Virus record (IMG/VR): IMGVR_UViG_3300021964_010723
DNA length: 64,000 nt
From: a virus
Taxonomy: Duplodnaviria > Caudoviricetes
Strand: one strand, 5' to 3'
Shown: in pieces, positions 36,406 through 55,082 of the stretch
Numbering within the stretch: position 1 is the first letter of the stretch
How the letters are laid out: each line of letters starts with the position of its first letter
Made by a program: the position numbers and the translations under genes
The notes under the pieces: model-generated
Databases searched by the model: none
What the model was told of the DNA's origin: nothing
What the model saw: only the letters and a program-made list of their open reading frames with translations

Positions 36406-36735
36406 TTATACTTTAATATACCCGATTCCGCGGTCGTTGTCAACCCCTTGCTCATTTAATATTTGTGTAGCAATAGTCCTGAACCATTGATCGACTAATT
36501 CTTCATTTGTTTCGCCTGTGTAGCCTGCATCAATTAGTTCTTCAATAAATTGATTGTTCCAATCTAATTCAAAGAATCCATTGCGAATATTTTCCGGATT
36601 AACTTGGGTGTCAAGCACTGCCACCCACGCTAGACCTTTTTTTGAAGCAATTTCTTTTTCTTTTGCAAGGATAGATCTACGCTCTTCTTCAGGTGATATA
36701 TGAGTTTTTTGTTTGTTTTTAAACCAGTTTAACAT
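36406..36735 (-). CDS. Hypothetical protein
   Basis: Start at 36735 via TAATG overlap with queE stop; FFELDWNNQF segment. Confidence 0.7.
   Translation of the reverse strand: MLNWFKNKQKTHISPEEERRSILAKEKEIASKKGLAWVAVLDTQVNPENIRNGFFELDWNNQFIEELIDAGYTGETNEELVDQWFRTIATQILNEQGVDNDRGIGYIKV
36415..36443 (-). promoter_or_regulatory. Sigma70-type promoter upstream of RNase H
   Basis: TTGACA-17 nt-TATATT. Confidence 0.65.
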
Positions 36736-37607
36736 TATGTACCCCAACTATTTCCGAATAAATCTACTTGCAGCCTAGGACTATACCTCCAGCCTTTTTC
36801 GAGTGCTAGTGCAGCTACATTTATTTTATTTGCACCATATTCTTCTTTGCACCCACCTACTGGCATAACATATACAGGAACATTTACTGTACCTTCTATA
36901 TATTGATCAACAGCTTTTTTAACATCTTCTATATCAGTTTCGTCTGCTACTACAAATTTAAGATACATTTTACTGTTACGTACATTCAAATATTGACAAG
37001 CTATTTGAGGCTTAATTGCATCACTCCATTTCTCCCCACTTACAGTTAATTTAGGACTACAAGCCCATGTAACTTTGAATTGCTCTTGTTCAGATAAAAA
37101 CGAGAAAAATTTATTGTTAAGCGGTTGTGTTGTATTTGTTTCAATTGTAAGATTCTTAAGATCTGCCATGCCCGGATGCTTGAATAATTCAATCCAAAAT
37201 CTCTGCCAAAGTAAAGGCTCGCCGCCTGTTAGTATAAAGTGTATATCTTGTCCATTATCCATCTGCCACTTTCCTTCTGGTGTTAAACTAAGCAAATGTT
37301 CTACAACTTCATCTACAGTCTTATCCATCATATACTTTTTAAATTCTGGATAGATGCTTGCGTATGTATCGCATCCTGTCCTAACCATAGGTAAATCTTC
37401 AAAGCGATGCACATTTTCCAAAACACCGTCGTCTAAGAACGCACGTACTTCGTCGCTGTACTTTTTCCTTTTTACACCCCTAGGCAGTCCAAAACCTTGA
37501 CAACGGAAGTTACAGCCAAAGCTCCTTAAAAATACGCTAGGAGTACCAATAAAATTGCCCTCGCCTTGTACTGAGTAGAATGCTTCTGAATATCTTAATG
37601 TCTTCAT
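36735..37607 (-). CDS. queE: 7-carboxy-7-deazaguanine synthase (radical SAM)
   Basis: SVQGEG..PSVFLR..GCNFRC, inserted loop then CDT; TGGEP; IETN; CSPK; next to folE. Confidence 0.85.
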   Translation of the reverse strand: MKTLRYSEAFYSVQGEGNFIGTPSVFLRSFGCNFRCQGFGLPRGVKRKKYSDEVRAFLDDGVLENVHRFEDLPMVRTGCDTYASIYPEFKKYMMDKTVDEVVEHLLSLTPEGKWQMDNGQDIHFILTGGEPLLWQRFWIELFKHPGMADLKNLTIETNTTQPLNNKFFSFLSEQEQFKVTWACSPKLTVSGEKWSDAIKPQIACQYLNVRNSKMYLKFVVADETDIEDVKKAVDQYIEGTVNVPVYVMPVGGCKEEYGANKINVAALALEKGWRYSPRLQVDLFGNSWGT

Positions 37608-38275
37608 CGGTGTCCTTTCATACTAAGGCATATGTCATAAAATTCTTGCTTTAGATATGGATCGGATTGGAAAGCACCTAGCATGATTGCGGTAGTCATG
37701 TCACTTTCATGTTCACGAACACCTCTGTGTGTCATGCAGTGATGTTCTGCTTTAACTACAACAGCAACATTAGGAGTCTTTGCATATTCAGATAATGCCT
37801 TTGCAATCTGTGTAGTCATTTCTTCTTGTATCTGCGGACGCTCTGCAATGTGATGTACAAGCCTGTTAAACTTGCTTAATCCAATTACTTCATCTTCTGG
37901 TACAATACCTACCCAACACTTGCCTACGATATTTTGGAAATGATGGGCACAGGTACTACGGATTGATATAGGTCCGCTAGTGTATAGGCTTTTGTACCCC
38001 ATGTTAGGAAATGCGGTAATTTTAGGAACAGGTTTATATCTTCCGCCGAAGATTTCCTGCACATACATTTTCGCTACACGTTTTGCAGTTTCGTTTGTGT
38101 TGTGATCGTTTTCAGTGTCAATTACTAGGCTGTCTAGTACTGCTTTAAATTTTTGTTCTACTTCTTCTTGTAGCAGTTCTATTTCGTATGGGGCAATATG
38201 TTCGCTAATATTGTCGTTGCTGTGGAATCTTACGTTTCGTTCTTTTAGTCTTTGTTTTATTTCATCGCTTATCAT
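37604..38275 (-). CDS. folE: GTP cyclohydrolase I
   Basis: STCAHHF, GLSKFNR, RPQIQE, HHCMTHRGV. Confidence 0.95.
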   Translation of the reverse strand: MISDEIKQRLKERNVRFHSNDNISEHIAPYEIELLQEEVEQKFKAVLDSLVIDTENDHNTNETAKRVAKMYVQEIFGGRYKPVPKITAFPNMGYKSLYTSGPISIRSTCAHHFQNIVGKCWVGIVPEDEVIGLSKFNRLVHHIAERPQIQEEMTTQIAKALSEYAKTPNVAVVVKAEHHCMTHRGVREHESDMTTAIMLGAFQSDPYLKQEFYDICLSMKGHR

Positions 38276-38314: not shown

Positions 38315-38343
38315 ATTGTATATGTATTTAGAAAATTTGTCAA
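38315..38343 (-). promoter_or_regulatory. Sigma70-type promoter of folE-queE
   Basis: TTGACA-17 nt-TACAAT; the -35 overlaps the rpe stop. Confidence 0.75.
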
Positions 38344-38975: not shown

Positions 38976-38991
38976 ATATATCCTAAATTGA

Positions 38992-39831: not shown

Positions 39832-39839
39832 AGTTAGTA

Positions 39840-39862
39840 GGGGCTAGTAGCCCCCCTTTTTT
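39840..39862 (+). terminator. GC hairpin with T-tract on the + (antisense) strand
   Basis: GGGGCT-agt-AGCCCC followed by CC-TTTTTT, between two - strand genes. Confidence 0.45.
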
Positions 39863-39867
39863 AATTG

Positions 39868-40920: not shown

Positions 40921-40952
40921 TTATTTCCTTTTATATATAGGGTTTAAAAAAT

Positions 40953-41501
40953 TTAAGCAACTTCGTCAAATAGACTATCAAAATGTTCCTTGTCAGGACC
41001 ACCAAGGTTTCTTTTGCACGGATTTTGAATATTTCCAAACGGCAATCTTTTATATGTATCTATAAAATCTCGGACTAATTTTTTTTCCGTTTCGGCAGTT
41101 GGACTACTTGCAAATTTAGTCCTCTCCATTTTAGTAGTATCCCAAACATGAGCAACAATATCAGTCCTATGAACATAAATGTTGTCATGCATAGCTTTTA
41201 CTGCAGGAATCACTATGTCTTCCATATCTTTTCCATTAGTTGTCCTAGATTTGTCAATACCAAAGCCGGGGATATAAAGCAATTTTCTATATAATCGACT
41301 GTCCATGCCTGTAGACATTCCTATGTTAAAGATTTTACAATCTTCAGGAATTGTAAGTAGCTCAAAGGCGTAACAAAAATTTATAATACCTAAGTCTTTT
41401 TGCATAATCATTAGGATATCATACGGTTTTTTAATATACTTTAATTCGAATTTGTAGTCTGCGTTGAAAAGGGATACGTTATTAGGATTATTTGCTGCCA
41501 T
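40953..41501 (-). CDS. Hypothetical protein, possible GIY-YIG-like nuclease
   Basis: CYAF..IGMS..SR..TEKKL..LPFGN spacing resembles GIY-YIG core. Confidence 0.4.
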   Translation of the reverse strand: MAANNPNNVSLFNADYKFELKYIKKPYDILMIMQKDLGIINFCYAFELLTIPEDCKIFNIGMSTGMDSRLYRKLLYIPGFGIDKSRTTNGKDMEDIVIPAVKAMHDNIYVHRTDIVAHVWDTTKMERTKFASSPTAETEKKLVRDFIDTYKRLPFGNIQNPCKRNLGGPDKEHFDSLFDEVA

Positions 41502-41525
41502 AAAAAAACTCCTTGTAAAAGTTTT

Positions 41526-41554
41526 ATGATACTTTAATATTATCTTTTTGTCAA
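41526..41554 (-). promoter_or_regulatory. Sigma70-type promoter
   Basis: TTGACA-17 nt-TATCAT, AAGGAG RBS, upstream of 41501. Confidence 0.75.
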
Positions 41555-41557
41555 TGA

Positions 41558-42526
41558 TTATTTAAATTGTTTCTCAAATTCACGCAAACGCTTGTAAACA
41601 CTCATTAGCTCTACAATTTGTAACCATGAACGGATTATAAATTGCAAACTCTCTGCTACTTTCCCAAATGCTCTAGTGGTTTGACTTACAACTCCTAATG
41701 TAATTCCGCCTGCAATAATACTAGGGCCTAATGCTACATATGGTACAATTACCATACCTTGTAAATAACTCCACTTGGCAATGTTAAAGTAAAAATAATG
41801 TAAGTAAGATCTAAAATGGATTTTCCTTACATTTGCAAATAATAACTCAACATCTGTTATATTTGCACGGTACTGGTTGTCTTCTCCGTGGACAAGTTCT
41901 TTGCGGTATGCCGCTTCTTCTTTCTGTATATCGTATTCAATACCTGGAAGTTTACTACCTACTAAACTCAGTATCACAGTACCACCTAGTGCAGTAATTA
42001 AAACAGCCCATACAAGTCCATGATCAACATGTCCAAAGATAGGAAACTCTGTTACTGCTTTACTTAGTCCGTAAAGGATTGGTACAAATGCAATCAGCAT
42101 GAGTACGCTTTCTAATAATCCTACTCCTAAGTTTTCTGTTAAACGGGCAAACTTTAGTGTATCTTCTTGTACACGTTGACTTGCTCCTTCTATATGACGG
42201 ACACGTTGCCAGTTATCGTGATAATAATCTGCCATACTTTGCCGCCAACGGAACGTCCAATGATTAACAAGGAAGCCGTTAAATATTACATTAACAATAA
42301 TATAGATACCTGCAATGCTGAAAAACTCAAACATGTATCCATAATATTCTTCACTGCTAACAGATCCGGGTTGTGATAATGCACGTTGCAGAGCATCGTA
42401 AAACTTACCGAACCATTCGTTAATCTGGACATCTAGTTGCACACTATACCATATAGCAGCAACTATCGTTAGAGTACCTAGTGTACTCCATAGTCTCCAA
42501 CGACTATCGTAAAAAAATCTAAACAT
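41558..42526 (-). CDS. sbmA: SbmA/BacA-like peptide transporter
   Basis: QINEWFGKFYD, FRWRQSM, IEGASQRVQEDT, EAAYRKELVHGED, ELMSVYKRLREFE; multiple TM helices. Confidence 0.85.
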   Translation of the reverse strand: MFRFFYDSRWRLWSTLGTLTIVAAIWYSVQLDVQINEWFGKFYDALQRALSQPGSVSSEEYYGYMFEFFSIAGIYIIVNVIFNGFLVNHWTFRWRQSMADYYHDNWQRVRHIEGASQRVQEDTLKFARLTENLGVGLLESVLMLIAFVPILYGLSKAVTEFPIFGHVDHGLVWAVLITALGGTVILSLVGSKLPGIEYDIQKEEAAYRKELVHGEDNQYRANITDVELLFANVRKIHFRSYLHYFYFNIAKWSYLQGMVIVPYVALGPSIIAGGITLGVVSQTTRAFGKVAESLQFIIRSWLQIVELMSVYKRLREFEKQFK

Positions 42527-42534
42527 TTTATTTC

Positions 42535-43158
42535 CTAATTTTTTTCTGCAAGCAATATGATCATTTCCGACTTTGGGCGGAAATGTCGAGTTATGAATTT
42601 TTGCTTTAATGTTGGAATGTCTATATAAACACCATCTTTAACTGAGTACAGTTCTAAAATGGTAAATTTTGTTTTATCTATGATGCTTTCAAGTTCTGTA
42701 CAATTTATTTGCAGCATATTATCAGTATTCATACATTCTTGATTATTAGTCATTAATTTGATTACTTTTTCGTCAAAGTTATTTTTGTGCCAAAAGAAAT
42801 GGAACATTTTACCTTTGTGTTTAAGTTTCTTATGACACATGTCTAGTATGAAATTTATATTTTTTAACCAATGTAGTACACCAGTTGATACAATTAAATC
42901 AAAAGAATTGTCATTTAGTTTTTGCCAGGTATTTGTTTGACGTAAATCACCATTAATGAAATTTGGATTATTTATATTATGCTGAATGTCAATCCCAATA
43001 ACTTCTGTCATAAATTTATCTGCATTGGAAAAATCGCCACAACCTATATCTAGGCATTTACCTTTTGGAATCTTTAGTATTTTATTTTTCGGATACTTTA
43101 TTATTCCATCGTTAAGCACAAGGCCTGGAAATATAATATTATTTTTAAGCACCGTCAT
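42535..43158 (-). CDS. Class I SAM-dependent methyltransferase
   Basis: LDIGCG, FDLIVSTGVLHW. Confidence 0.8.
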   Translation of the reverse strand: MTVLKNNIIFPGLVLNDGIIKYPKNKILKIPKGKCLDIGCGDFSNADKFMTEVIGIDIQHNINNPNFINGDLRQTNTWQKLNDNSFDLIVSTGVLHWLKNINFILDMCHKKLKHKGKMFHFFWHKNNFDEKVIKLMTNNQECMNTDNMLQINCTELESIIDKTKFTILELYSVKDGVYIDIPTLKQKFITRHFRPKSEMIILLAEKN

Positions 43159-43160
43159 TT

Positions 43161-45828
<2,668 letters not shown>

Positions 45829-45854
<26 letters not shown>

Positions 45855-46233
45855 CTTCTCTAATGTATCTTAATAGTTCTTTATCTTGTACATTGTCTGG
45901 AATATTATTTTTATAAAAAATTTCGTAACTGTCGCTTCCGTACTTACCAATACCGTGTAGGTCCTTAGCGTTATTTTGATCCCATGTTAGGAAGTCTTGA
46001 CTCATACGGAACAATCGTTTTGTACGAACTTCGCCCATTCCTAGTGGACTTACAAGTTCTTTTACTGTATCAAAGTCTGCTTGTAAAAATTGTTCAGCAG
46101 TGCTCCACTGAGAAAAAAATTCAGGTAGTACACGTTTTACCTGCTTGCGATTAGTAAGATTTAAGCAGATAACACCTACCATGTGTTGCCATTTGTTAGC
46201 AACCTGCTGCTGTACCATAAGTTCATCTACCAT
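45829..46233 (-). CDS. MBD4-like HhH-GPD DNA glycosylase domain
   Basis: LHGIGKYGSDSY helix-hairpin-helix; CLNLT; PLGM; probable start MVDELM at 46233. Confidence 0.85.
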
Positions 46234-46786
46234 ATTGCCCCACATCTTCCCAAGGGTAAACTAACCATACATCCTCTTCTGCTTTGTTTACAGTATCGCA
46301 GTAGTAGTTTACAAGTTCAAAGTTGCTAGACAAGTTTTCGGTAAGCACAGCAAATCTTACACTATTACCCCAAATCTCTTTCCAAGCCACATCTCCTGGC
46401 ACACAACTACTTTGCCAATCTGTAACAATCCAGTCAAACGTTTTTCCTGAGTCGTTTATATCGTCAACAATTAAGATTTTTTTACGTTTCTCTGCAATGC
46501 TACCTGTTACGCTGTCAAAATAACCTTCGGTAGGTATAACACCATATCCATATGCATCTTCTGCCATCCAGCAATTGCTTTCTGTGTATAATCCATTATC
46601 TCGGAAGTTTACTTGTAGTGTGTCAGCAGGTATATTTGTCATGTTACTGATTATTGTAGCAGGTACGTTACCTCCACGGGTAAGACCTACTATATAATCA
46701 GGCCGCCAATTATCTGCATACAGTTGATTTACAATTTGTATGCACATTGTTTCAATATCATTCCACGAATAATATTTCTTTTTCAT
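46223..46786 (-). CDS. Type I phosphoribosyltransferase (purine salvage-like)
   Basis: VGLTRGG, ILIVDDINDSGKT PRPP loop, WLVYPWE. Confidence 0.85.
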   Translation of the reverse strand: MKKKYYSWNDIETMCIQIVNQLYADNWRPDYIVGLTRGGNVPATIISNMTNIPADTLQVNFRDNGLYTESNCWMAEDAYGYGVIPTEGYFDSVTGSIAEKRKKILIVDDINDSGKTFDWIVTDWQSSCVPGDVAWKEIWGNSVRFAVLTENLSSNFELVNYYCDTVNKAEEDVWLVYPWEDVGQYGR

Positions 46787-47094
46787 TATGCCTTTTTATT
46801 TTTAGATTTGTAATCAGCTTTTACTAAGTCGTATATTTGTCGGAAATTTCGATAGGCTTTATCTAATGCAGGATATTCTGCAGCCATTTTTTCAACTTCA
46901 CCTGTATTAATAAGTTCATTAAATGTAACAGTGTTATCCCAGATAGTAGTACTATAAGTAAAGCTATCTGGGTTGACTAAGGAAGTATTATCTGCCATTG
47001 TATCATAGGTTAAAACTTGTGATTCTTGATCGTCTAACGGTATAGTTATTGTCACAGGTCTGTTATAATTGTATTCTGGATTTACTTTATTCAT
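46786..47094 (-). CDS. Hypothetical protein
   Basis: 102-aa ORF coupled at both ends. Confidence 0.7.
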   Translation of the reverse strand: MNKVNPEYNYNRPVTITIPLDDQESQVLTYDTMADNTSLVNPDSFTYSTTIWDNTVTFNELINTGEVEKMAAEYPALDKAYRNFRQIYDLVKADYKSKNKKA

Positions 47095-48155
47095 TTTAAT
47101 GCATTATAAAGACGTGTACCAGAAAAGAATTTATTTTCTAAAAATTCTTTTTGTTCAATTATTTGTCCTTTATACTTACTATAGTTTTCCATGAAATGTA
47201 ATATTCTCTCCATTAAACTAATTTTATATTCTTTATAGGTATCAAAACTAGCAGTCCACGCACTAGGATATTTAAAATCATCTTGCGCCATTTCTTTATA
47301 ACTCAATCTATCTGGAACCATAGGAATACAATCTACAAGTAATCCTTCATACCAACTGATTCCTAAAGTTTCTTGTAAGTTTGCACTAAAAACAATTTTA
47401 GCTCGTCCTAATAATTCATGATACTCTTTTTTAGTTAATTTTTTATCTTGGCAAGTTACAAATTCATATTGTGGTAAAGATTCTTTTAGGTCTAAGAAAA
47501 TATCATGTTGTTTTTCTGGAGCAATCCTGTGCGGAAAAACTATAATATTTTCTTTCTGTCGGCCTCTATTACCAAACATACTGTCATGTAAATATTCCAT
47601 TGGCCAACCGACACGTTTGATTTTATGTAATTTTTGTTCATCTATTTCAGCTGTGTCTTTCCAAAATGTTTCAGTAAATAAATCAATATGAAATTCTGTT
47701 GCAAAAAAATTGTCATCGTAGCATTCATACATGCTCATTTCTGCATGTCTGACCCACGGAGAATCACCAATTAGTCTACCTAAGAAATCATGGTGATCAT
47801 ATGATCCAGCATGCCACATACCGCCAATTTTGATTTTATAACCTAGTAGTTCAGCCATATATTTTAATTGAATAACAGTAGGATTCCATGCATCAGTATA
47901 CAAGAAATAATCCCCGTCTTGTATTTCATTATTACAAAACATTTCTGCAATTATTTCTTGTTGTTTACTTTTGTAGACATTAGTACCACCAAAATTTAAA
48001 AAAGCTCCAGGAGTAGTATCTTGAGGAATTTCACCTCCGCTAATTGTTATAACAGATGCGCCGGTAGCTTTTTCAATTTGTTTAGGAAGCCAGTCTTTCC
48101 ATTGTTTAGTATATCTAGTTTCAACAGCTTCTAAGTCAACTATATAGATAGTCAT
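47091..48155 (-). CDS. GT-B fold glycosyltransferase (possibly DNA-modifying)
   Basis: FPHRIAPEKQ, QETLGISWYEG (E-x7-E), VPDRLSY. Confidence 0.8.
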   Translation of the reverse strand: MTIYIVDLEAVETRYTKQWKDWLPKQIEKATGASVITISGGEIPQDTTPGAFLNFGGTNVYKSKQQEIIAEMFCNNEIQDGDYFLYTDAWNPTVIQLKYMAELLGYKIKIGGMWHAGSYDHHDFLGRLIGDSPWVRHAEMSMYECYDDNFFATEFHIDLFTETFWKDTAEIDEQKLHKIKRVGWPMEYLHDSMFGNRGRQKENIIVFPHRIAPEKQHDIFLDLKESLPQYEFVTCQDKKLTKKEYHELLGRAKIVFSANLQETLGISWYEGLLVDCIPMVPDRLSYKEMAQDDFKYPSAWTASFDTYKEYKISLMERILHFMENYSKYKGQIIEQKEFLENKFFSGTRLYNALK

Positions 48156-48156
48156 C

Positions 48157-48330
48157 TTACCCTTTATTTTTACTGTTATACTTCTGCCAAATTAAGTAAC
48201 TTTCCCATACTCGGTCGCCTTTTTTATATAAACTAGATTCATGGAAAGGTTTACCCTCGAATCTACAATAGTCACGAAATGCGTCTAAATCATCAAAAAT
48301 TTTTCGGATAAGTGGATCTTTAATTGCCAT
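48157..48330 (-). CDS. 57-aa hypothetical protein missed by the ORF track
   Basis: MAIKDPLIRKIFDDLDAFRDYCRFEGKPFHESSLYKKGDRVWESYLIWQKYNSKNKG fills the gap exactly. Confidence 0.75.
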   Translation of the reverse strand: MAIKDPLIRKIFDDLDAFRDYCRFEGKPFHESSLYKKGDRVWESYLIWQKYNSKNKG

Positions 48331-48332
48331 TT

Positions 48333-48719
48333 TTATTTCTCTTCATAATCGTTATAAATTATTTGACAGCCATTTTCGCCATCTTCTGCAACATCAATTA
48401 CAACAAATCGACCTGGATACTTTGCGTGAATATGATGATATAAATCATCCGAAATCATTTCGCAGCTTTTATAGTCTAATTGAACTGTTCCTGTGTTATA
48501 TAGATTTTCACACCAGCGTTTAAATTGTATAAATTCAATTTCTCTATCATCATGGAAAACTTCTATTTGTACTTTGAAATGAAAAATATGTCTGTGTGGA
48601 TGACCTAAAAAGCTTACATCATATTCATCTCCTGTAGCAAGATTAGGATCTGTTAGTGCTGCAGGATATTTATGAATACCTTCTTTTTTAAAAGTTACCC
48701 AAATGCTTCTTTTACTCAT
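48333..48719 (-). CDS. dpdL: QueD-paralog T-fold protein of DpdL type (putative CDG decarboxylase)
   Basis: LGHPHRHIF fits the LxxxHRHxF signature; no QueD CxxxHGH; SCEMI C-terminal T-fold motif. Confidence 0.65.
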   Translation of the reverse strand: MSKRSIWVTFKKEGIHKYPAALTDPNLATGDEYDVSFLGHPHRHIFHFKVQIEVFHDDREIEFIQFKRWCENLYNTGTVQLDYKSCEMISDDLYHHIHAKYPGRFVVIDVAEDGENGCQIIYNDYEEK

Positions 48720-48730
48720 ATTACCTTTAT

Positions 48731-49258
48731 TTATTTTAGTATAGTATCTGCGGTATAATCTTTCCATTTTGTAAATTTATCACTTGCCATTAAGTCATGC
48801 AATCTATGACACCAAACTCCGGGATTTGTACTATTATAAGATATATCATCTATCTTAATCATTGTATTATAGTTCCAAAGTTTTACATATGGTATAGGAA
48901 TTCTAAGTTGCGGAATAAAATTATTAAACTCGCATAACCCTCCTTCGTTAAATTGTTCAATAGCATTAAAGGGAATATCTAAACTGCACAAGTGTCCTTC
49001 TTTTAGAAAGTGTTCTATCATCTGTTCCCATTGGTCCCATTCTTCCGGTGTTTGCGGATTAAAAGAATGATTAGCACCAAAAAAGATGTGTTCTGCTTTA
49101 AGTTTTCCTACAGCATTAGTAATGTCTAGTATAGGTTGTATTCCTACAACAAATAATGTATTCATTGAATAGGCAGGAGTTTTTTCAACTTCCCTACCAT
49201 AAAAAAATCTTACATTATCTCTATTTAACTTTTCGTTACTATAGTTTCTGTCCATCAT
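48731..49258 (-). CDS. Hypothetical protein between TGT-like and DpdL-like genes
   Basis: 175 aa; GREVEKTPA, HIFFGANHSF, NPGVWCH. Confidence 0.75.
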   Translation of the reverse strand: MMDRNYSNEKLNRDNVRFFYGREVEKTPAYSMNTLFVVGIQPILDITNAVGKLKAEHIFFGANHSFNPQTPEEWDQWEQMIEHFLKEGHLCSLDIPFNAIEQFNEGGLCEFNNFIPQLRIPIPYVKLWNYNTMIKIDDISYNSTNPGVWCHRLHDLMASDKFTKWKDYTADTILK

Positions 49259-50799
49259 ACCTCTTCAATATGTTCGTTATATTTTGTGATTGGATTAGTC
49301 ATCTTTTTACCTACAGCGCCTCTTGTGCCGATAATAGTGTCTAAAAATGGTCTGTAATCGTCACAAATTTTATTTGCTTTTTCTCGATCATCAGTTGAGA
49401 ATATTTCTTCAACTACTTCTCGAAAAGCAATCTTCTCAAATTTTTCATGCAGTAACATAGAAGGAAAAATTCCTGCATCATATTTCCGATTTGCTTCTTG
49501 TACTGCGTTTATATGCATCCAAACATTATGACCCATCATCAATGCATAGCTAAAACTATCCCAGCTAGTTGAATCTTTATCTCTAATAATAGGATTGCCG
49601 TCTTTATCTAATTTTATAGATCCATCTTTGTTTAATTCTGGATCTCCAGCAAGTACTTTGATAGCACCAACTTTATTTTTATCACCTATGTTATATACAC
49701 AAATGTCATTTGTAAGTAATTTATCTGAGATAGGACTATCCATAAATGATGTATGATTACCTTCTCTAACAAATGCTTTTCCAAATGGAGTAGTATCAGT
49801 TGCTAAATGCAAACCGTCTATGCTAGGAACCATTCTATAAACCCATTTTGATCTATCATCAGTTTCTAATTCACAGTAAATTTGACCATTAGCAGTTGCT
49901 AAAAATGGACTTGCACAATCAAATGTTATTGTGAAATTTTCATTATGGTATTTTCTAATTGCTCTTTGTACATCTGTTAGTAACGCAGCCCACTCAAGTT
50001 TACTTGTACCTAAGAAATGCATTACATCATGTGTACCTTTTTCTAGCAAACCATCATATCTTAATGCTATAAGTCTTTTAAGTGCTAAGTGTATATCACA
50101 CATATTTTGTCCGCCCATGCTCCAACCATTAAAGTGATTAGAAGGATATTTTTTTGGATCACAATAGTCTTTCATTTGTTGATACCAATCCTCTGCTTCT
50201 GTATGGTTTTCACCTTGTAACACATTTAAAAATTTACAAGCACCTGATCTATTTTTTAAAAAATAATTGTTATTAATTCTTGTTGCATCTACTGCTTGTT
50301 GGTAAGTAGTAACTCCTGTAGCTTTTTTTCCTTCGTCACTTCTAGCTACCCAGGCAGGAATGTCTAGTATCATTCCATAATCCATGTATTTGTCCATCCA
50401 GCGCAAAACGTCATTTCGTTTCTTACTAGCTTTAGGACAACTAGGATCTTTCCAGTCGCCTTCCCAAACACCTTTACCTATTTGGAATCCACCACTGTCA
50501 CCAAGTACCCAAGTATCTTCTCTGTTTCGATTCCTTATCATATCTTCGTTTGGATCATCTTTGGTTATGTCCAAGTTTGCATGACCTGCAGAATACAGTG
50601 TCCATTTATAATAAAATTTACCTTCTTGTTTATTAATGTAGTTAAGACTTTCGACACCGTTATTTAAATGCTTAGGAATTCTTGTTTTATCAACATATTC
50701 TTCAAATCTTTGTTTACCTACAAATGTAGCATAGAAGCCGCTAAGTGCAGGCAAAAATATTGCATAATCTTTTTGTGTTTCTGTTAAGTTTGTGTTCAT
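49255..50799 (-). CDS. dpdA: TGT-superfamily transglycosylase (DpdA-like)
   Basis: GDSGGFQ, MILDIP, LNVLQG, WSMGG, HFLG, FDCASP; start at 50799 via TAATG overlap. Confidence 0.65.
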   Translation of the reverse strand: MNTNLTETQKDYAIFLPALSGFYATFVGKQRFEEYVDKTRIPKHLNNGVESLNYINKQEGKFYYKWTLYSAGHANLDITKDDPNEDMIRNRNREDTWVLGDSGGFQIGKGVWEGDWKDPSCPKASKKRNDVLRWMDKYMDYGMILDIPAWVARSDEGKKATGVTTYQQAVDATRINNNYFLKNRSGACKFLNVLQGENHTEAEDWYQQMKDYCDPKKYPSNHFNGWSMGGQNMCDIHLALKRLIALRYDGLLEKGTHDVMHFLGTSKLEWAALLTDVQRAIRKYHNENFTITFDCASPFLATANGQIYCELETDDRSKWVYRMVPSIDGLHLATDTTPFGKAFVREGNHTSFMDSPISDKLLTNDICVYNIGDKNKVGAIKVLAGDPELNKDGSIKLDKDGNPIIRDKDSTSWDSFSYALMMGHNVWMHINAVQEANRKYDAGIFPSMLLHEKFEKIAFREVVEEIFSTDDREKANKICDDYRPFLDTIIGTRGAVGKKMTNPITKYNEHIEEV

Positions 50800-51530
50800 T
50801 ATTTTGTTTGACAAGGAATGATGTAATCATAAGTAGCTAATCCACTATCTACTGAAATTTTCATCACACCTGTATCTGAAATACTTATAGTAGAGTTTCC
50901 TGATAAACTTAAAATGCTTTGAACTTCTTGCACAGGATAGCTTTTTTGAGTAGTTAAACTGCCACCAGCTTTGTGTTTGAATACAAATTCACCTTCATGT
51001 GTTACGCTATCACCAAATGAAAATATGATATTATCATTATCTGATTTTACGTTAAAATGTAAATTTTCAGAGTGAACAGCACTCATTAGTTTCATCCTTG
51101 TGATGCTTGCTACAGGTGGCTCAAATTCAACACCCCACTGAGCACCTTTAAATCTTACACTTTTTAAATTCTTTTCAATAATATCTTTGTTAATAAACTT
51201 GTACTCATTTTTAAAATCTCCAATGACATTTTCAAAGTATAATCCAGCTGGATATTCTTCGTCATTTTTTGATTTGCGTACTACTTCAATTTTAGCATCT
51301 TCTTTATATTCAGGACTTTTTAGTAACAAGTTTAATTTATCTAAATTCCCCATACCAAATATTCCATCGAATTCATTAATTCGGTCATGAGTAGTTCCAA
51401 ATAAAATTACACCTCTGTTTTCTGTAATGCTGTTAATAGATGTTGAAGTAGAGTCTGTAGAAATTTTTAGTGTATTTAAAAATCCTAATCCATGTGTGTG
51501 TGATACGATGTCTTGTAAAATATCTTGCAT
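50799..51530 (-). CDS. Sliding clamp (gp45-like)
   Basis: 243 aa near DNA polymerase; FGM..LDKL, F.FGD, ISDTG.MKI.VDSG..YDYI pattern. Confidence 0.75.
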   Translation of the reverse strand: MQDILQDIVSHTHGLGFLNTLKISTDSTSTSINSITENRGVILFGTTHDRINEFDGIFGMGNLDKLNLLLKSPEYKEDAKIEVVRKSKNDEEYPAGLYFENVIGDFKNEYKFINKDIIEKNLKSVRFKGAQWGVEFEPPVASITRMKLMSAVHSENLHFNVKSDNDNIIFSFGDSVTHEGEFVFKHKAGGSLTTQKSYPVQEVQSILSLSGNSTISISDTGVMKISVDSGLATYDYIIPCQTK

Positions 51531-51545
51531 TTATCCTTTATAGTT

Positions 51546-54500
51546 TTAAGTTTTTTCTGTTCCTTGTAGTATATAATTGTATATACCATTTGGGCTTTTT
51601 ACAGTTATCATTAAACGGCCTTCGTCGGAAATTCGCATAACCTTGTCACCGTCTAACAATTGAATTGCTAAAATTTGAGGCACGTTGTACGTCCAACGTT
51701 TATCTAAGTGGCTAACAGGCATTAAGTACGAATTTCGATCGTTTACGAATAGCTTAACATGATTTTGCGCTCCTGTCAAGATAGGATTGTCTTTTATATT
51801 TTTAATTAAATCTTGCTGTACTTCAAAAGCGTAAACATATTTTTTATCTAATTCTGGTAGCGTTATTGGTCGTCTTAAGTCAAATCCTCTAACAACATTT
51901 TGGTCTTGATACTGTGGATTTACTGGAGGCAATGATGGTGGAACAGAGATATTGCCAGCCATATGCCTATGACGTGGGCAATAGTAATAATATGTATTAT
52001 TTTCTGCAACAGTCCAATTTACAGTATCCGAGCCATTACCAAATGACCCTCTTGCATGATATCTTGTTCCTTTTTCTTGTTTAGTTTTTATCCAAAAAGG
52101 ATGTATACTAACAGTCGCTGGATCTACGTTAAATTGAACTTTGTCTCCTATAGCAAAAGTTAGCGAAGGCATTGTTGCACTAAAGGTACCATTTCTATCT
52201 GTGCCTGACATTGTATAAGTGTCGTTCACATGGGATACTGTGATTATGTAATCAGGAGTAAATTCAGGTGACCATGCATTTCTTCCATAGGTGTAATCAT
52301 TTTCTTCATAGTAGTAAGGAGCCCATAAAGTGGAATCCTGTGGTAAAGGTAAATTTATATCATTAAAAATATGGTCATAAGGCGGTGTATTTGGAATAGG
52401 ATCTAAGTCAGGATGATATAGATTTTGTCGTGTATATATAACAGGAGGTTTGCCTATGCCTGTAAAGGGTTGAGCAGAATAACTGCTGAGGACAAATCCA
52501 TTGCCCGTGTCGTGCCTTATAAAAAATTCATTAGGTGTGTCATAAAAATTTACCACTTCTCCGCCTAATGTATCTGTAATTTGTAATCTACGATTATTTA
52601 TTATATTTTTAATATAATATTGTTGGTTTGTAGACAAAGTTGTTGTAGGAATTGCGCTAGCATCATTATAAGATTCAAATTGTATTGGCATATTTAATCT
52701 AAACCAACCTGTATCGTCTACTTCTAATTCATTTGCTTCGTGATAAATCTCAAATTCAAAATTGCTATATGGTACAGGCTTAACAGGGCCACCAATCGTT
52801 TCGGTAATAGTGAATTCCAATCTTACAAAATCTATTTTCATTTCAAATTCAAAATTACTATATGGTAATAGTAACTGTTCACCATTTGGTTCATCTGAAA
52901 GTGTAAAAAATCCGTCTTTATATACTTCTTTTATATAATATTTTTTGTATGGATCAGGTGTAACAGGATCTTGTAGTTCTGCTTCTATCAATGCATTTGC
53001 AGAGTCTGGTAAATTTTCAAAAGAAACCTCAATTCCTGGATATAAAACATCTATAAATCCTTTTTCAATAGGCACGTCTAAAGATAAAATTCCGTCGCTA
53101 TCTACTCCAGTGACTAAAAATTTTTCTTCTCCGTCATAAAATTTTGTTACTTCTTTTATGTAATAAGTTTTTGTAGGATCTAATTCTGCTTGTAATAACG
53201 CATTTGTGGAATCAGGCGGATTCCGAAATTTAACAGGCATGTTAGGTTCTAAATGTTTCCATAATTCTTTGCCATTCGTTTGTACATAGGAAAAATTAAA
53301 GTCAAAAATTTGATATATGTCCAAAACAACTGTCAAAAACAGTTCAAAATTTGTAAAAGGTAAGACATGAATAGGACCTCCCAAGGAGTCAGAAAAGGTA
53401 AAATTATGACAATCTATTATTTCTTTTACATAATATATACTTGTTGGATCTAATCCAGCAGCAACCACAGCGTCTGCACTGTCTGGCGGATTGCTAAAAC
53501 GTATTTGTTTTCCTACTTTTAAAATAGAAGTGTCTTCTATCGTTATGACCAGGTTTTCTTCATCAAGAAATGGTCCTATGAAATAATTCCTAGACGGAAC
53601 TTGTCTATATATAGTATCAGTGTATTCAGCAACTGTTCTTGTTATAGTTTTGAATTCGTCAATAATCCTAGAAATATATGTTCCTTTTATGTTTTTTTCC
53701 CAAGTTATCTTGCCAAAGTTTGGATTATCTTCGCCAAAATAAAATTCTAAATCATGTTCAGGAAATATATTTGATTCTGATACGATACGTGCCAAAAAAC
53801 TGAAATTTGAATAAGGAAGTAATAGTATTGCACCATTTAAGGAATTTGAAATAGTAAAAGATCCGTCGCTGAAAGTTGTTAGAACATAATAAATAGTATC
53901 TGGCAATAATCCAACATTTGATAATGCATTTGATGAATCATCCGTATTGCTGAAAACTAATTGTGTGCCTGGAGATACTAGTAATGTATTACTTAGTAAT
54001 CTATTATTATTATCAACGCCATTGATAATGTTTGTGAATATATTATTTGAATATAAATCAAATGTTACGTAATCTACATATGCAAGTGCCATTTTATCAA
54101 ATCTAGATTTTTGCAATTCAGTAAGATTAAGGCTAAAATTCCACAGACTGTTTTTAAAATCTATCATTTCATGTTGTGACGGAACTACGTTTCTATCTAT
54201 TAATTGCCACTCGTCTTTGAAGGTATCGTCGGGATTATCAAAATTTAATTTATTAGATACAAATTCATTATTTTCATCTATATTGTTAACAGCTATATTA
54301 CTGTCAGTTGGATATTCTTGTAAATTTTCTAAATAATTAAATAGCTTATAAAGATCAAACATGCCAAATTCAGCATTAAAATCAGTTATTTTCTCATCTG
54401 TTCTGGCATCTAAGTATACTATTTTATCTTCAGTAACCCCCTCTATGAAAGTATGATCCTGTATTATTTCAAAACTCGTTGTTAATGAACTAGAAAAATG

Positions 54501-55082
54501 TAAAAAATTATAATGTGAATCTTTTACGGTATTAGGTAAGTGTTGTGATGCGCTAATCCTAATTTTGTTGTCTTCTAGTATCTCATAAACAAAATATTTC
54601 GTTAATAATTGTAAACCTGTTAAGGATACTTTATTACCATAGATAGGAAATTCTTCAAAGACTAGACGCATACCTAAGTCTAACCAACTTGTGTCTTTAA
54701 CTCTCAAATAACTACGATCAAATTTTATATTAAAGCTTCCTGTAGGTGTACTTAAAGGTAATACTTCTCCAGGAAGTTCAGTTTCACCTATATTGAATTT
54801 TACACAGGTTGTATCTCCTACAATATTTTTTACATAATAATATTTTGCAGGATCTATTTCTGTAGATATACCTTCAAATCTAACTTTTATTTTAGATTCT
54901 AGCCACGGAACATTATTAATTGTTGTTACAAGTTGATTGTTTTCTACATCTACCCTTGTAATTGTACCAGTTAGATCTGGTATTATTTCAACAACTTCAC
55001 TTTTTATATGATATAATTTTAAAAAATGAAATAATGTATTATTGTAGGTATATTCTAATATTTCTTGTAATGTTGCTCTCAT
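51546..55082 (-). CDS. Sliding-clamp paralog interrupted by about seven beta-rich repeats and a cupredoxin-like domain
   Basis: Four segments align colinearly by eye with the whole of 50799-51530; inserts carry F..(D)..YYV..S..GG repeats and HPF..YYCPRHRHM. Confidence 0.75.
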   Translation of the reverse strand: MRATLQEILEYTYNNTLFHFLKLYHIKSEVVEIIPDLTGTITRVDVENNQLVTTINNVPWLESKIKVRFEGISTEIDPAKYYYVKNIVGDTTCVKFNIGETELPGEVLPLSTPTGSFNIKFDRSYLRVKDTSWLDLGMRLVFEEFPIYGNKVSLTGLQLLTKYFVYEILEDNKIRISASQHLPNTVKDSHYNFLHFSSSLTTSFEIIQDHTFIEGVTEDKIVYLDARTDEKITDFNAEFGMFDLYKLFNYLENLQEYPTDSNIAVNNIDENNEFVSNKLNFDNPDDTFKDEWQLIDRNVVPSQHEMIDFKNSLWNFSLNLTELQKSRFDKMALAYVDYVTFDLYSNNIFTNIINGVDNNNRLLSNTLLVSPGTQLVFSNTDDSSNALSNVGLLPDTIYYVLTTFSDGSFTISNSLNGAILLLPYSNFSFLARIVSESNIFPEHDLEFYFGEDNPNFGKITWEKNIKGTYISRIIDEFKTITRTVAEYTDTIYRQVPSRNYFIGPFLDEENLVITIEDTSILKVGKQIRFSNPPDSADAVVAAGLDPTSIYYVKEIIDCHNFTFSDSLGGPIHVLPFTNFELFLTVVLDIYQIFDFNFSYVQTNGKELWKHLEPNMPVKFRNPPDSTNALLQAELDPTKTYYIKEVTKFYDGEEKFLVTGVDSDGILSLDVPIEKGFIDVLYPGIEVSFENLPDSANALIEAELQDPVTPDPYKKYYIKEVYKDGFFTLSDEPNGEQLLLPYSNFEFEMKIDFVRLEFTITETIGGPVKPVPYSNFEFEIYHEANELEVDDTGWFRLNMPIQFESYNDASAIPTTTLSTNQQYYIKNIINNRRLQITDTLGGEVVNFYDTPNEFFIRHDTGNGFVLSSYSAQPFTGIGKPPVIYTRQNLYHPDLDPIPNTPPYDHIFNDINLPLPQDSTLWAPYYYEENDYTYGRNAWSPEFTPDYIITVSHVNDTYTMSGTDRNGTFSATMPSLTFAIGDKVQFNVDPATVSIHPFWIKTKQEKGTRYHARGSFGNGSDTVNWTVAENNTYYYYCPRHRHMAGNISVPPSLPPVNPQYQDQNVVRGFDLRRPITLPELDKKYVYAFEVQQDLIKNIKDNPILTGAQNHVKLFVNDRNSYLMPVSHLDKRWTYNVPQILAIQLLDGDKVMRISDEGRLMITVKSPNGIYNYILQGTEKT

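What the first reader, a model, noticed from the sequence alone, without database searches (positions are those of the whole stretch)
47091..50799. DpdA-like, unknown, DpdL-like, 57-aa and glycosyltransferase operon: candidate new hypermodified deazaguanine
Seen: five tightly packed genes: a long (about 514 aa) TGT-fold protein, a 175-aa unknown, an LxxxHRHxF T-fold protein, a 57-aa ORF and a GT-B enzyme. folE and queE lie 10 kb away; no queC or canonical queD is in the window. Established: FolE/QueD/QueE make CDG, DpdA inserts deazaguanines into phage DNA, and DpdL is linked to decarboxylated 7-deazaguanine, a route that needs no QueC. Inference: the coupled glycosyltransferase and two unknowns suggest a further, possibly sugar-bearing, deazaguanine derivative that I cannot match to a described base.
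Basis: partly seen in the sequence, partly recalled or inferred. Interest (0 to 1): 0.8.

Follow-up and report, generated by a model that had tools for sequence, protein, structure and literature searches.

The report
Deazaguanine DNA-modification operon with glycosyltransferase
An uncultured estuarine jumbo phage carries a tightly packed operon that most likely swaps guanine in its DNA for a 7-deazaguanine-type base, and the operon includes a sugar-transferring enzyme and an unknown protein that no described deazaguanine pathway accounts for.

Summary
On the minus strand, 47091-50799 carries five overlapping or abutting genes.

- **514-aa protein:** no Pfam, PHROG or NCBIfam hit. Its AlphaFold model (pLDDT 92.6) matches tRNA-guanine transglycosylases (Z 19-20.5), and the family keeps the TGT catalytic motifs.
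- **175-aa protein:** conserved, with no assignable fold.
- **144-aa protein:** a true DpdL homologue, 56% identical to ACP17 DpdL and 33% to phiST DpdL, with the LxxxHRHxF motif.
- **57-aa ORF:** conserved, unknown.
- **354-aa protein:** a GT4-like GT-B glycosyltransferase with an EX7E motif.

FolE and QueE lie 10 kb away. A canonical QueD lies about 52 kb away in a near-identical contig. No QueC was found.

The DpdA-like, DpdL and GT genes are linked in seven phage lineages: marine jumbo phages, PA5oct, Phosso, ACP17, X1/BUDD, BCSR5 and BUCT-ZZ01. PA5oct DNA is reported to resist G-site restriction enzymes, and its base is unidentified. The paper that defines DpdL does not mention the GT.

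No data show a sugar on the base. phiST carries DpdL without this GT and has plain dDG. I rate a deazaguanine DNA modification at about 0.8 and a sugar-bearing base at about 0.4. This is a new variant of a known kind, testable in cultured phages.

The parts
49255..50799 (-). DpdA-like DNA guanine transglycosylase candidate (514 aa), jumbo-phage clade of the TGT superfamily
   Evidence: AF2 pLDDT 92.6. Foldseek top 50 hits are all TGT. VIA Z 19-20.5 over about 300 aa. D101, S102, G104 and D294 are invariant; D146, G196, W226 and L263/G264 are conserved in 90% or more of the 74 diverse homologues. The family HMM hits ACP17 gp123 (2e-11) and phiST DpdA3 (2e-4). It is 35% identical to PA5oct EST35_0316.
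48731..49258 (-). Conserved 175-aa protein of unknown fold family; pathway-linked accessory enzyme or subunit
   Evidence: 29 invariant residues in 40 homologues, many of them polar. Homologues are ACP17 gp122, next to its dpdA (HMM 1.5e-18), and a PA5oct gene 27 kb from its cassette (42% identity). There is no clear fold match: best Z 6.7, with QueE cores at Z 5.2-5.9 and TM 0.59. No sequence-profile link to QueE.
48333..48767 (-). DpdL-family T-fold protein (QueD paralogue, proposed CDG decarboxylase)
   Evidence: phrog_17812 at 1.2e-35. 56% identical to ACP17 gp125 and 33% to phiST CGPG_00067, the two DpdLs named in PMC10516641. Carries LxxxHRHxF in place of QueD's CxxxHG(H/Y).
48157..48330 (-). 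57-aa basic protein, conserved in the marine clade, function unknown
   Evidence: Found at the same position in 52 of the related marine loci, 38-100% identical. pI 9.1. No family hit.
47091..48155 (-). GT4-like GT-B glycosyltransferase (354 aa), candidate tailoring enzyme of the deazaguanine base
   Evidence: Weak Pfam Glycos_transf_1 hit (E 0.0017). The Xanthomonas phage X1 homologue (26% identity, E 5e-31) passes Glycos_transf_1 at 45.5 bits. The second Glu of EX7E (E270) and R210/E214/K215 are conserved in all lineages; the first (E262) is conserved in all but BUCT-ZZ01, which has Asp. ESM Atlas neighbours are GT1/GT4 clusters. 45% identical to PA5oct EST35_0317 and Phosso 'glycosyltransferase', and 38% to ACP17 gp124.
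46786..47094 (-). 102-aa acidic protein, conserved in the marine clade, unknown
   Evidence: Same position in 35 related loci. No family hit.
46223..46786 (-). Purine (xanthine/guanine-type) phosphoribosyltransferase; probable salvage of the guanine released by base exchange
   Evidence: Pfam Pribosyltran 4.8e-11 and NCBIfam xanthine PRTase 7e-9. Found in 48 related loci. Homologues sit inside the PA5oct (EST35_0321) and BUCT-ZZ01 deazaguanine cassettes. The salvage role is inference.
37604..38275 (-). GTP cyclohydrolase I (FolE), first step to CDG
   Evidence: Pfam GTP_cyclohydroI 4.4e-47. In related contigs that lack the purine island it follows the cassette directly.
36735..37607 (-). QueE-like radical SAM enzyme (CDG synthase)
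   Evidence: 40% identical to the annotated BUCT-ZZ01 QueE (2e-68), 32% to X1 QueE and 29% to PA5oct QueE. Only a weak Pfam Radical_SAM hit.

Best explanation
The operon is the core of a post-replicative guanine-to-7-deazaguanine DNA modification system of an estuarine/marine jumbo phage.

Proposed sequence of steps:
1. FolE, QueD (encoded elsewhere in the genome) and QueE convert GTP to 7-carboxy-7-deazaguanine (CDG).
2. With no QueC, the DpdL-family T-fold protein processes CDG. Decarboxylation to 7-deazaguanine is the published proposal.
3. The 514-aa DpdA-like transglycosylase exchanges guanine in phage DNA for the deazapurine.
4. The purine PRTase returns the released guanine to GMP/GTP, which feeds FolE again.
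5. The GT4-like glycosyltransferase, and probably the 175-aa protein, are additional pathway members that decorate the deazaguanine, most likely with a sugar.

The virion base would then be a derivative beyond plain dDG.

Shown here: the folds, families, motifs and conserved linkage. Inferred: DNA rather than tRNA as target, the order of steps, the salvage role and the sugar acceptor. My odds are about 0.8 for a deazaguanine DNA modification, about 0.55 for the GT as a pathway member, and about 0.4 for a sugar on the base in virion DNA.
For: - **TGT fold:** confirmed, with an invariant catalytic Asp pair and a substrate Asp conserved in at least 90% of homologues.
- **Link to phage DpdA:** the family profile reaches ACP17 gp123 and phiST DpdA3.
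- **DpdL:** the 144-aa protein is homologous to both named DpdLs and carries the motif (PMC10516641).
- **GT:** GT4 hallmarks are conserved, and a homologue passes the Pfam threshold.
- **Operon structure:** gene junctions from -37 to +7 bases.
- **Conservation:** the order pol, clamp, TGT, g175, DpdL, g57, GT, g102, PRTase, FolE, QueE, RNaseH recurs in about 80 marine contigs.
- **Linkage:** the GT sits next to or within 3 kb of DpdL in seven lineages: marine jumbo phages, PA5oct-like, Phosso, ACP17, X1/BUDD, BCSR5 and BUCT-ZZ01.
- **Precursor genes:** a canonical QueD with CxxxHGY is in all three related contigs that extend far enough. No QueC scores above cut-off in 10 contigs.
[quoted passage not shown] Its base is not identified (PMC12191111).
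- **Missing component in earlier work:** dpdL plus dpdA of ACP17 or phiST alone gave no dDG in E. coli, and the authors suggested that other enzymes may be needed (PMC10516641).
- **Chemical precedent:** huimycin and the dapiramicins carry a sugar on N2 of a 7-deazapurine, attached by a glycosyltransferase (PMC7439116). Queuosine is glycosylated in tRNA.
- **No alternative acceptor seen:** no ThyA/hydroxymethylase family gene in five large related contigs, so no obvious hydroxymethyl-pyrimidine acceptor.
Against: - There are no chemical data for this phage or for any relative's base.
- 7-deazaguanine has no hydroxyl, so the acceptor atom is unclear.
- DpdL's activity has never been demonstrated.
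- Five DpdL lineages show no GT of this type (phiST-like, RHph_I1_18, Bakedbeans, Ahp1, D479). phiST DNA is plain dDG.
- In Phosso the TGT-like gene is 170 kb from the DpdL-GT pair, and in PA5oct the g175 homologue is 27 kb away.
- The related contigs are fragments (17-72% complete), so absence of QueC or a hydroxymethylase is not proven.
- The GT is acidic (pI 5.5), which gives no hint of DNA binding.
Confidence: 0.5

Rival explanations
1. The system makes only a known base (dDG as in phiST, or dCDG). The glycosyltransferase, though linked, acts on something else, such as another DNA base, a virion or host protein, or an envelope glycan. The 175-aa protein is unrelated to base chemistry.
For: phiST has DpdL and DpdA3 without this GT and carries dDG (PMC10516641). 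Five DpdL lineages lack a detectable GT of this type. dDG offers no hydroxyl acceptor. BUCT-ZZ01 carries a second GT in the same block, which could point to a glycan rather than a base target.
Against: The GT lies directly between or beside dpdA and dpdL, often with overlapping stop and start codons, in seven distant lineages. No hydroxymethylase family gene was found in five large related contigs. dpdA plus dpdL alone did not yield dDG in E. coli. PA5oct is sensed by nucleases described as targeting hypermodified DNA.
Confidence: 0.3
2. The modified base enters DNA before or during replication. The PRTase converts the free deazapurine to a nucleotide that is reduced, phosphorylated and polymerised. 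The TGT-like protein and the GT then have proofreading, salvage or tailoring roles.
For: A purine PRTase is a recurrent member of the cassette in marine jumbo phages, PA5oct and BUCT-ZZ01. The cassette sits among replication genes: DNA polymerase, clamp and RNase H. D479 has a dNMP kinase near its DpdL. The deazaguanine paper reports nucleoside-form ADG in cells infected with phage CP220.
Against: The catalytic Asp pair of a base-exchange enzyme is strictly conserved, which argues for active transglycosylation. The literature finds a DpdA in every phage with deazaguanine DNA and reads the modification as post-replicative. Guanine salvage explains the PRTase more simply.
Confidence: 0.1
3. The TGT-like enzyme modifies tRNA (phage or host) rather than DNA, and the operon tunes translation.
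For: The nearest solved structures are all tRNA enzymes. Glycosylated queuosine exists in tRNA.
Against: The TGT zinc-binding CxCxxC...H motif is not conserved in the family. The family is closer by profile to phage DpdA proteins than to TGT: Pfam TGT hits only 2 of 74 members weakly. The genes lie among replication genes. PA5oct DNA itself is restriction-resistant at G-containing sites.
Confidence: 0.04

Closest known systems
Phage DpdA3/DpdL system of Cellulophaga phage phiST (FolE, QueD, QueE, DpdL, DpdA3 giving dDG; Cui et al. 2023, PMC10516641)
   Same: Same QueC-free logic. It has a homologous DpdL (33% identity with the same LxxxHRHxF motif) and a transglycosylase that the window family's profile detects (E 2e-4), plus FolE, QueD and QueE.
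   Different: phiST's DpdA3 is 259 aa against 514 aa here, and is only remotely similar. phiST has no homologue of the GT4-like glycosyltransferase, the 175-aa protein, the 57-aa protein or the PRTase. The published pathway does not mention a glycosyltransferase.
Acidovorax phage ACP17 cassette gp119-gp126 (QueD, FolE, gp122, DpdA gp123, gp124, DpdL gp125, QueE)
   Same: It contains homologues of four of the five genes: g175 (gp122), the DpdA-like enzyme (gp123, by profile only), the GT (gp124, 38%) and DpdL (gp125, 56%), all contiguous.
   Different: The transglycosylase belongs to another clade (424 aa, grouping with X1 and BUCT-ZZ01). The gene order differs, and there is no 57-aa gene or PRTase in the block. 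Its DNA base has not been reported. Only its DpdA and DpdL were tested, without success.
Pseudomonas jumbo phage PA5oct (Wroclawvirus) locus EST35_0311-0325
   Same: Same clade of 514-540-aa transglycosylase (35% identity, full length).
   Different: The g175 homologue lies 27 kb away. DpdL has HFH in place of HRH. The host and habitat differ. The base remains unidentified there too.
Bacterial and eukaryotic tRNA-guanine transglycosylase (TGT, e.g. Zymomonas mobilis, PDB 1pud/2pwu)
   Same: Same (beta/alpha)8 fold (Z about 20). The order and spacing of the DSGGFQ, LD, Q, GG and catalytic D motifs match (Z. mobilis numbering is from memory).
   Different: About 12-14% identity. No conserved zinc motif. 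Extra inserts and a C-terminal helical region. Below Pfam threshold.
HuiG of huimycin biosynthesis and QTMAN/QTGAL of vertebrate tRNA (glycosyltransferases acting on 7-deazapurines)
   Same: They show that glycosyltransferases can put sugars on 7-deazapurines. HuiG acts on the N2 amino group of the free base (PMC7439116). QTMAN and QTGAL act on queuosine's cyclopentenediol.
   Different: No homology to the window's GT was tested or shown. The substrates are a secondary metabolite and tRNA, not DNA. This is an analogy of chemistry only.

Membership tests
TGT/DpdA superfamily (guanine transglycosylases) | TGT-type (beta/alpha)8 barrel fold | tested here: met
   AF2 model pLDDT 92.6. Foldseek top 50 hits are all TGT (probability 1.0). 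VIA Z 19-20.5, 293-327 residues aligned, rmsd 4.0-5.6.
TGT/DpdA superfamily (guanine transglycosylases) | Catalytic Asp pair (DSGGFQ Asp and nucleophile Asp) and substrate-binding Asp | tested here: met
   D101 (GDSGGxQ) and D294 (SxDxxSPF) are invariant, and D146 (LDxP) is conserved in at least 90% of 74 homologues down to 26% identity. Correspondence to Z. mobilis D102/D280/D156 rests on motif order and on the sub-threshold HMM alignment 97-220 to 101-233. It was not derived from a residue-level structural superposition.
TGT/DpdA superfamily (guanine transglycosylases) | Zinc-binding CxCxxC...H subdomain of tRNA TGTs | tested here: not met
   After D294 no column has Cys in more than 51% of sequences, and only H424 (88%) is conserved.
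TGT/DpdA superfamily (guanine transglycosylases) | Sequence-model membership (Pfam PF01702 TGT) | tested here: not met
   No hit for the window protein. Only 2 of 74 family members reach E 0.011.
DpdA3 subfamily (phiST CGPG_00065 type) | Close sequence similarity to phiST or Campylobacter phage DpdA3 | tested here: inconclusive
   The family HMM hits phiST_65 at only 11 bits (E 2e-4 in a 25-sequence set) and ACP17 gp123 at 34 bits. tblastn of the window protein finds only PA5oct-like, Phosso and one Vibrio phage. The protein is twice the length of phiST DpdA3. It is best treated as a separate jumbo-phage clade. No tree with DpdA1, 2, 4 or bDpdA was built.
DpdA (functional definition) | Inserts a 7-deazaguanine into DNA | not testable with these tools
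   Only indirect support: the replication-gene context and the restriction resistance of PA5oct DNA (PMC12191111).
DpdL (QueD-paralogous T-fold, proposed CDG decarboxylase) | Homology to phiST CGPG_00067 and ACP17 DpdL | tested here: met
   33% (1e-14) and 56% (5e-47) identity over the full domain.
DpdL (QueD-paralogous T-fold, proposed CDG decarboxylase) | Signature LxxxHRHxF replacing QueD's CxxxHGH | tested here: met
   The window protein reads L-GHP-HRH-I-F. It aligns with the DpdL proteins and against three QueDs that carry C...HGY.
DpdL (QueD-paralogous T-fold, proposed CDG decarboxylase) | Co-occurrence with DpdA, FolE, QueD and QueE, without QueC | tested here: met
   FolE and QueE are in the window. 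QueD is in the near-identical contig. No QueC scores above cut-off in 10 related contigs, all of them fragments.
DpdL (QueD-paralogous T-fold, proposed CDG decarboxylase) | CDG decarboxylase activity | not testable with these tools
   Not demonstrated in the literature either.
GT4-like GT-B glycosyltransferases (Pfam Glycos_transf_1) | Glycos_transf_1 C-terminal domain | tested here: met
   The window protein itself is below threshold (18.4 bits against a cut-off of 26.4). Its homologue in phage X1 (E 5e-31) scores 45.5 bits. ESM Atlas neighbours carry PF00534.
GT4-like GT-B glycosyltransferases (Pfam Glycos_transf_1) | EX7E motif and the basic Arg/Lys pair of the donor site | tested here: met
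   E262-x7-E270 and R210/E214/K215 are invariant in 34 marine homologues. E270 and the R/E/K residues are conserved in PA5oct, Phosso, ACP17, X1 and BUCT-ZZ01. E262 is conserved in all of these except BUCT-ZZ01, which has Asp. The meaning of the motif is from general knowledge of GT4 enzymes.
DNA base glycosyltransferases (T4 alpha/beta-GT type) | Sequence or structural similarity to known DNA glucosyltransferases, and DNA as acceptor | not tested
   No model of the GT was made. Sequence and profile searches against PDB chains gave nothing.

The most novel reading that the evidence does not exclude
The GT4-like enzyme transfers a sugar onto the 7-deazaguanine. The acceptor could be the exocyclic N2, as in huimycin, or the electron-rich C7/C8, or a group installed by the 175-aa protein. 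The virion DNA of this very abundant marine jumbo-phage lineage, and of PA5oct, ACP17, Phosso, X1 and BUCT-ZZ01, would then contain a glycosylated deazapurine. To my knowledge this would be the first sugar-bearing purine-type base in DNA. The 175-aa protein would be a new enzyme family in this route.
Probability: 0.38. Interest if true: 0.88.

Novelty: new variant of a known kind. Interest (0 to 1): 0.72.

Why it matters
All known sugar-decorated DNA bases that I am aware of are pyrimidines (glucosyl-hmC, arabinosyl-hmC, base J). All eight known DNA deazaguanines are small C7 variants. A conserved cassette of glycosyltransferase, DpdL and DpdA-like enzyme predicts a further class of base.

The cassette is common and environmentally abundant. 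The transglycosylase family alone has more than 7,800 clusters at 90% identity and 932 at 50% in public data, mostly marine.

It would explain two loose ends. One is why dpdA plus dpdL alone failed to give dDG in E. coli. The other is what the unidentified modified G of the therapeutic jumbo phage PA5oct is. The PA5oct base matters for phage therapy because END-type nucleases and restriction systems discriminate on this modification.

The question can be tested directly in cultured phages. The work also defines a long, Pfam-invisible clade of DpdA-like enzymes that annotation pipelines currently call hypothetical.

Tried and rejected
- **Sequence libraries for the 514-aa and 175-aa proteins:** Pfam, PHROGs, NCBIfam and a PDB sequence search gave nothing. 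A family profile against PDB gave only sub-threshold TGT rows at E about 2.
- **Megablast of the operon against phage records:** no match.
- **Own assembly:** not held. The nearest record, G001, lacks the locus.
- **Fold of the 175-aa protein:** Foldseek PDB best E 0.05. VIA-wide best Z 6.7 (STAS). AFDB returned only its own unnamed family. QueE cores recur at Z 5.2-5.9 and TM 0.59, but hhalign against a QueE alignment gives 0.7% probability. No fold assignment was made.
- **Complex prediction of the 514-aa protein with the 175-aa protein:** no verdict (score 0.00). I make no claim about binding.
- **GT profile against PDB sequences:** only chance rows.
- **Pfam scan of 34 marine GT homologues:** only one weak hit.
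- **Large homologue search with the GT alignment:** saturated by close relatives and added nothing beyond JGI labels.
- **Supplementary tables of PMC10516641 and PMC7824862:** not held, so I could not check how ACP17's DpdA or PA5oct's genes were classed there. The MMBR 2024 review is also not held.
- **Sequencing runs:** all holders are Illumina contigs, so no signal of base modification could be read. RNA-library contigs cover pieces of the operon at 90-99% identity, but they cannot prove transcription.
- **Trp-halogenase-like gene beside queD in the near-identical contig:** I considered it as a source of an acceptor hydroxyl. I set it aside because the two other contigs have a different gene at that place.

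Full report
**1. What is there**

The window is low-GC phage DNA (29-41% GC). From about 64 kb down to 25 kb the genes run on the minus strand. The finding's interval holds five genes with junctions of -4, -37, +2 and +1 bases. The same tight packing continues upstream to the clamp gene (junction -1) and downstream to a 102-aa gene, a PRTase, an HhH-GPD protein and purA.

The order on the minus strand is:
- family-B DNA polymerase (55693-58362)
- a 184-aa gene
- an 1178-aa clamp paralogue
- a 243-aa clamp-like gene (50799-51530)
- the 514-aa protein
- the 175-aa protein
- the 144-aa protein
- the 57-aa ORF
- the 354-aa protein
- the 102-aa protein
- the PRTase
- the HhH-GPD protein
- a 96-aa gene
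- a purine/pentose island: PurA, a PurT/PurK-like ATP-grasp enzyme, a methyltransferase, SbmA, a Bmp-family protein, a 2OG oxygenase and Rpe
- FolE (37604-38275)
- a QueE homologue (36735-37607)
- a 113-aa gene
- RNase H

**2. The 514-aa protein is a TGT-superfamily enzyme of a clade that sequence libraries miss**

Pfam, PHROGs, NCBIfam and a PDB sequence search all return nothing. The family is nevertheless very large. More than 7,800 clusters at 90% identity were scored, most about 70% identical and many from marine surveys. There are 932 representatives at 50% identity.

An alignment of 74 diverse members, down to 26% identity, shows that D101, S102, G104, P148, G225, H261 and D294 are invariant. 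D146, Q106, N192, G196, W226, L263 and G264 are nearly invariant. These lie in the motifs GDSGGxQ, LDxP, LNVLQG, GWxxG, HxLG and SxDxxSPF. From memory of Z. mobilis TGT, the order and spacing match D102, D156, Q203, G229/G230, M260 and D280.

The AlphaFold model built on this alignment has pLDDT 92.6 and pTM 0.91. Its 50 best Foldseek matches in the PDB are all tRNA-guanine transglycosylases. VIA-align gives Z 19.1-20.5 with 293-327 aligned residues for bacterial, archaeal and eukaryotic TGTs.

The zinc-binding CxCxxC...H element of tRNA TGTs is not conserved. A profile of the family detects ACP17 gp123 (E 2e-11 across the catalytic core) and phiST CGPG_00065, the prototype DpdA3 (E 2e-4). It also detects the X1 and BUCT-ZZ01 transglycosylases at E about 1e-5. 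In cultured phages, full-length relatives occur only in PA5oct-like Pseudomonas jumbo phages (35%), Sinorhizobium phage Phosso (27%) and one Vibrio jumbo phage.

I therefore treat it as a separate, long, jumbo-phage clade of DpdA-like enzymes.

**3. The 144-aa protein is a DpdL**

It matches phrog_17812 (1.2e-35). It is 56% identical to ACP17 gp125 and 33% to phiST CGPG_00067, the two proteins that Cui et al. 2023 named DpdL. It carries L-xxx-HRH-x-F where QueDs have C-xxx-HG(H/Y), together with the family's other conserved blocks. DpdL is proposed, but not shown, to decarboxylate CDG.

**4. The 354-aa protein is a GT4-like GT-B glycosyltransferase**

Its own Pfam score is sub-threshold. Its homologue in Xanthomonas phage X1 (E 5e-31) passes Glycos_transf_1 at 45.5 bits. 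The second Glu of the EX7E motif (E270) and the R210/E214/K215 residues are conserved from the marine clade to PA5oct, Phosso, ACP17, X1 and BUCT-ZZ01. The first Glu (E262) is conserved in all but BUCT-ZZ01, which has Asp. ESM Atlas neighbours are GT1/GT4 clusters. Some database records label homologues 'glycosyltransferase family 4'. An invariant N-terminal E-x-RYT block may belong to the acceptor site; this is inference.

**5. The 175-aa protein is a conserved orphan**

Forty homologues share 29 invariant residues, many of them acidic, His, Asn or Lys, which is the pattern of an enzyme. It is homologous to ACP17 gp122, the gene just upstream of that phage's dpdA (HMM E 1.5e-18). It is also homologous to a PA5oct gene 27 kb from its cassette (42%).

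The model (pLDDT 85) has no convincing structural neighbour. The recurrent but weak resemblance is to the QueE core (Z 5.2-5.9; TM 0.59 over 140 residues). There is no Fe-S motif and no profile similarity. A complex prediction with the transglycosylase gave no verdict.

**6. Conservation and linkage**

In 80 IMG/VR loci the order pol, clamp, TGT-like, g175, DpdL, g57, GT, g102, PRTase, (HhH), FolE, QueE, g113, RNase H recurs. The window's purine island is a lineage-specific insertion between the PRTase/HhH genes and FolE. The contigs reach 256 kb at an estimated 72% completeness, so these are jumbo phages of roughly 350 kb. The stretch occurs in estuary, salt-marsh and marine metagenomes from many studies.

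Among cultured phages, a GT of this type lies beside or within 3 kb of a DpdL in:
- PA5oct-like phages
- Phosso
- ACP17
- X1/BUDD
- BCSR5
- the cyanophage BUCT-ZZ01

ACP17 reads gp122 (g175-like), gp123 (DpdA), gp124 (GT), gp125 (DpdL), gp126 (QueE), all contiguous. Five other DpdL lineages show no such GT: phiST-like, RHph_I1_18, Bakedbeans, Ahp1 and D479.

A purine PRTase also recurs inside the PA5oct and BUCT-ZZ01 cassettes.

**7. Completeness of the precursor pathway**

No QueD is in the window. A canonical QueD (PTPS 62 bits, C-xxx-HGY) lies 52-56 kb upstream of the transglycosylase gene in all three related contigs that extend that far. One of these is 98-99% identical to the window. No QueC scores above cut-off in ten related contigs. 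No ThyA/hydroxymethylase family gene was found in five. All of these contigs are fragments.

**8. Literature**

- Cui et al. 2023 define DpdL and DpdA3. [quoted passage not shown] The word glycosyl does not occur in the paper.
- Iyer et al. 2021 credit PA5oct with a 'deazaguanine synthesis/incorporation system'.
- A 2025 preprint shows that PA5oct DNA resists five G-containing restriction sites and is targeted by END nucleases that sense hypermodified DNA. The base was not identified.
- Sugars on 7-deazapurines are known on N2 of the free base in huimycin and the dapiramicins and on queuosine in tRNA.
- My searches found no report of a glycosylated deazaguanine in DNA.

**9. Reading**

The best-supported mechanism runs as follows:
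1. GTP is converted to CDG by FolE, QueD and QueE.
2. DpdL processes CDG.
3. The 514-aa enzyme exchanges guanine for the deazapurine in DNA.
4. The PRTase salvages the released guanine.
5. The GT, and probably g175, tailor the base further.

The folds, families, motifs and linkage are shown. The DNA target, the order of steps, the salvage role and the sugar acceptor are inferred.

The main rival is that the base is plain dDG or dCDG and the GT works elsewhere.

**10. Verdict**

This is a new variant of a known kind of system, with a specific and cheaply testable prediction in cultured phages. The earlier notes I retrieved from this scan were all on this same genome, so I saw none on other DNA. 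Those retrieved touch the neighbouring clamp paralogue, the purine island and the PRTase/HhH pair.

Noticed in passing
L099:1947-3161 (contig G007, 98-99% identical to the window at the TGT locus; outside the window): A flavin-dependent Trp_halogenase-family gene (Pfam 1.4e-49) lies directly downstream of the canonical queD. The two other contigs that carry queD have a different 275-309-aa gene at that position.
   Followed up: partly
window 45829-46245 (-): A small 138-aa HhH-GPD (endonuclease III-like) protein lies in the same coupled run. Homologues occur in 22 related loci but at varying positions, sometimes between the DNA polymerase and clamp genes. It might be a glycosylase or a decoy related to the iEndoIII sensors of END nucleases. 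This was not tested.
   Followed up: no
window 51546-55082 and 50799-51530 (-): The 243-aa protein (phrog_12062) resembles PA5oct's 'structural protein' EST35_0314 (31%) and Phosso's annotated sliding clamp (25%). The N- and C-termini of the 1178-aa neighbour resemble it. This matches the clamp paralogue already noted by an earlier report.
   Followed up: partly
L083 (ACP17) about 5213-5701; record 83047-83532: tblastn aligns all 175 residues of the window protein to ACP17, starting 90 bases upstream of the annotated gp122 start (83137). The ACP17 gene is probably longer than annotated.
   Followed up: no
L090 (Synechococcus phage BUCT-ZZ01) 3001-4344 and 5992-7158: This freshwater T4-like cyanophage has two glycosyltransferase genes in its deazaguanine block. 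One is a 447-aa Glyco_trans_1_4 protein and the other is the GT354 homologue. The block also holds a xanthine-guanine PRTase between queE and queD.
   Followed up: partly
L094 (Vibrio phage Bakedbeans) 4221-5372: The DpdL-like match lies in the C-terminal part of a 383-aa annotated ORF (gp176). This is a possible DpdL fusion protein.
   Followed up: no
window 38340-45556 (-): The purine/pentose island (Rpe, 2OG oxygenase, Bmp, SbmA, methyltransferase, PurT/K-like enzyme, PurA) is absent from this position in most related contigs, where FolE and QueE follow the PRTase/HhH genes within 1-3 kb. It is therefore a lineage-specific insertion into the deazaguanine module.
   Followed up: partly
window 45500-51600: Short contigs from four metatranscriptome libraries of different studies match parts of the operon, including DpdL, g175, the TGT-like gene and the PRTase, at 90-99% identity. 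This hints at expression of close relatives, but DNA carry-over cannot be excluded.
   Followed up: partly
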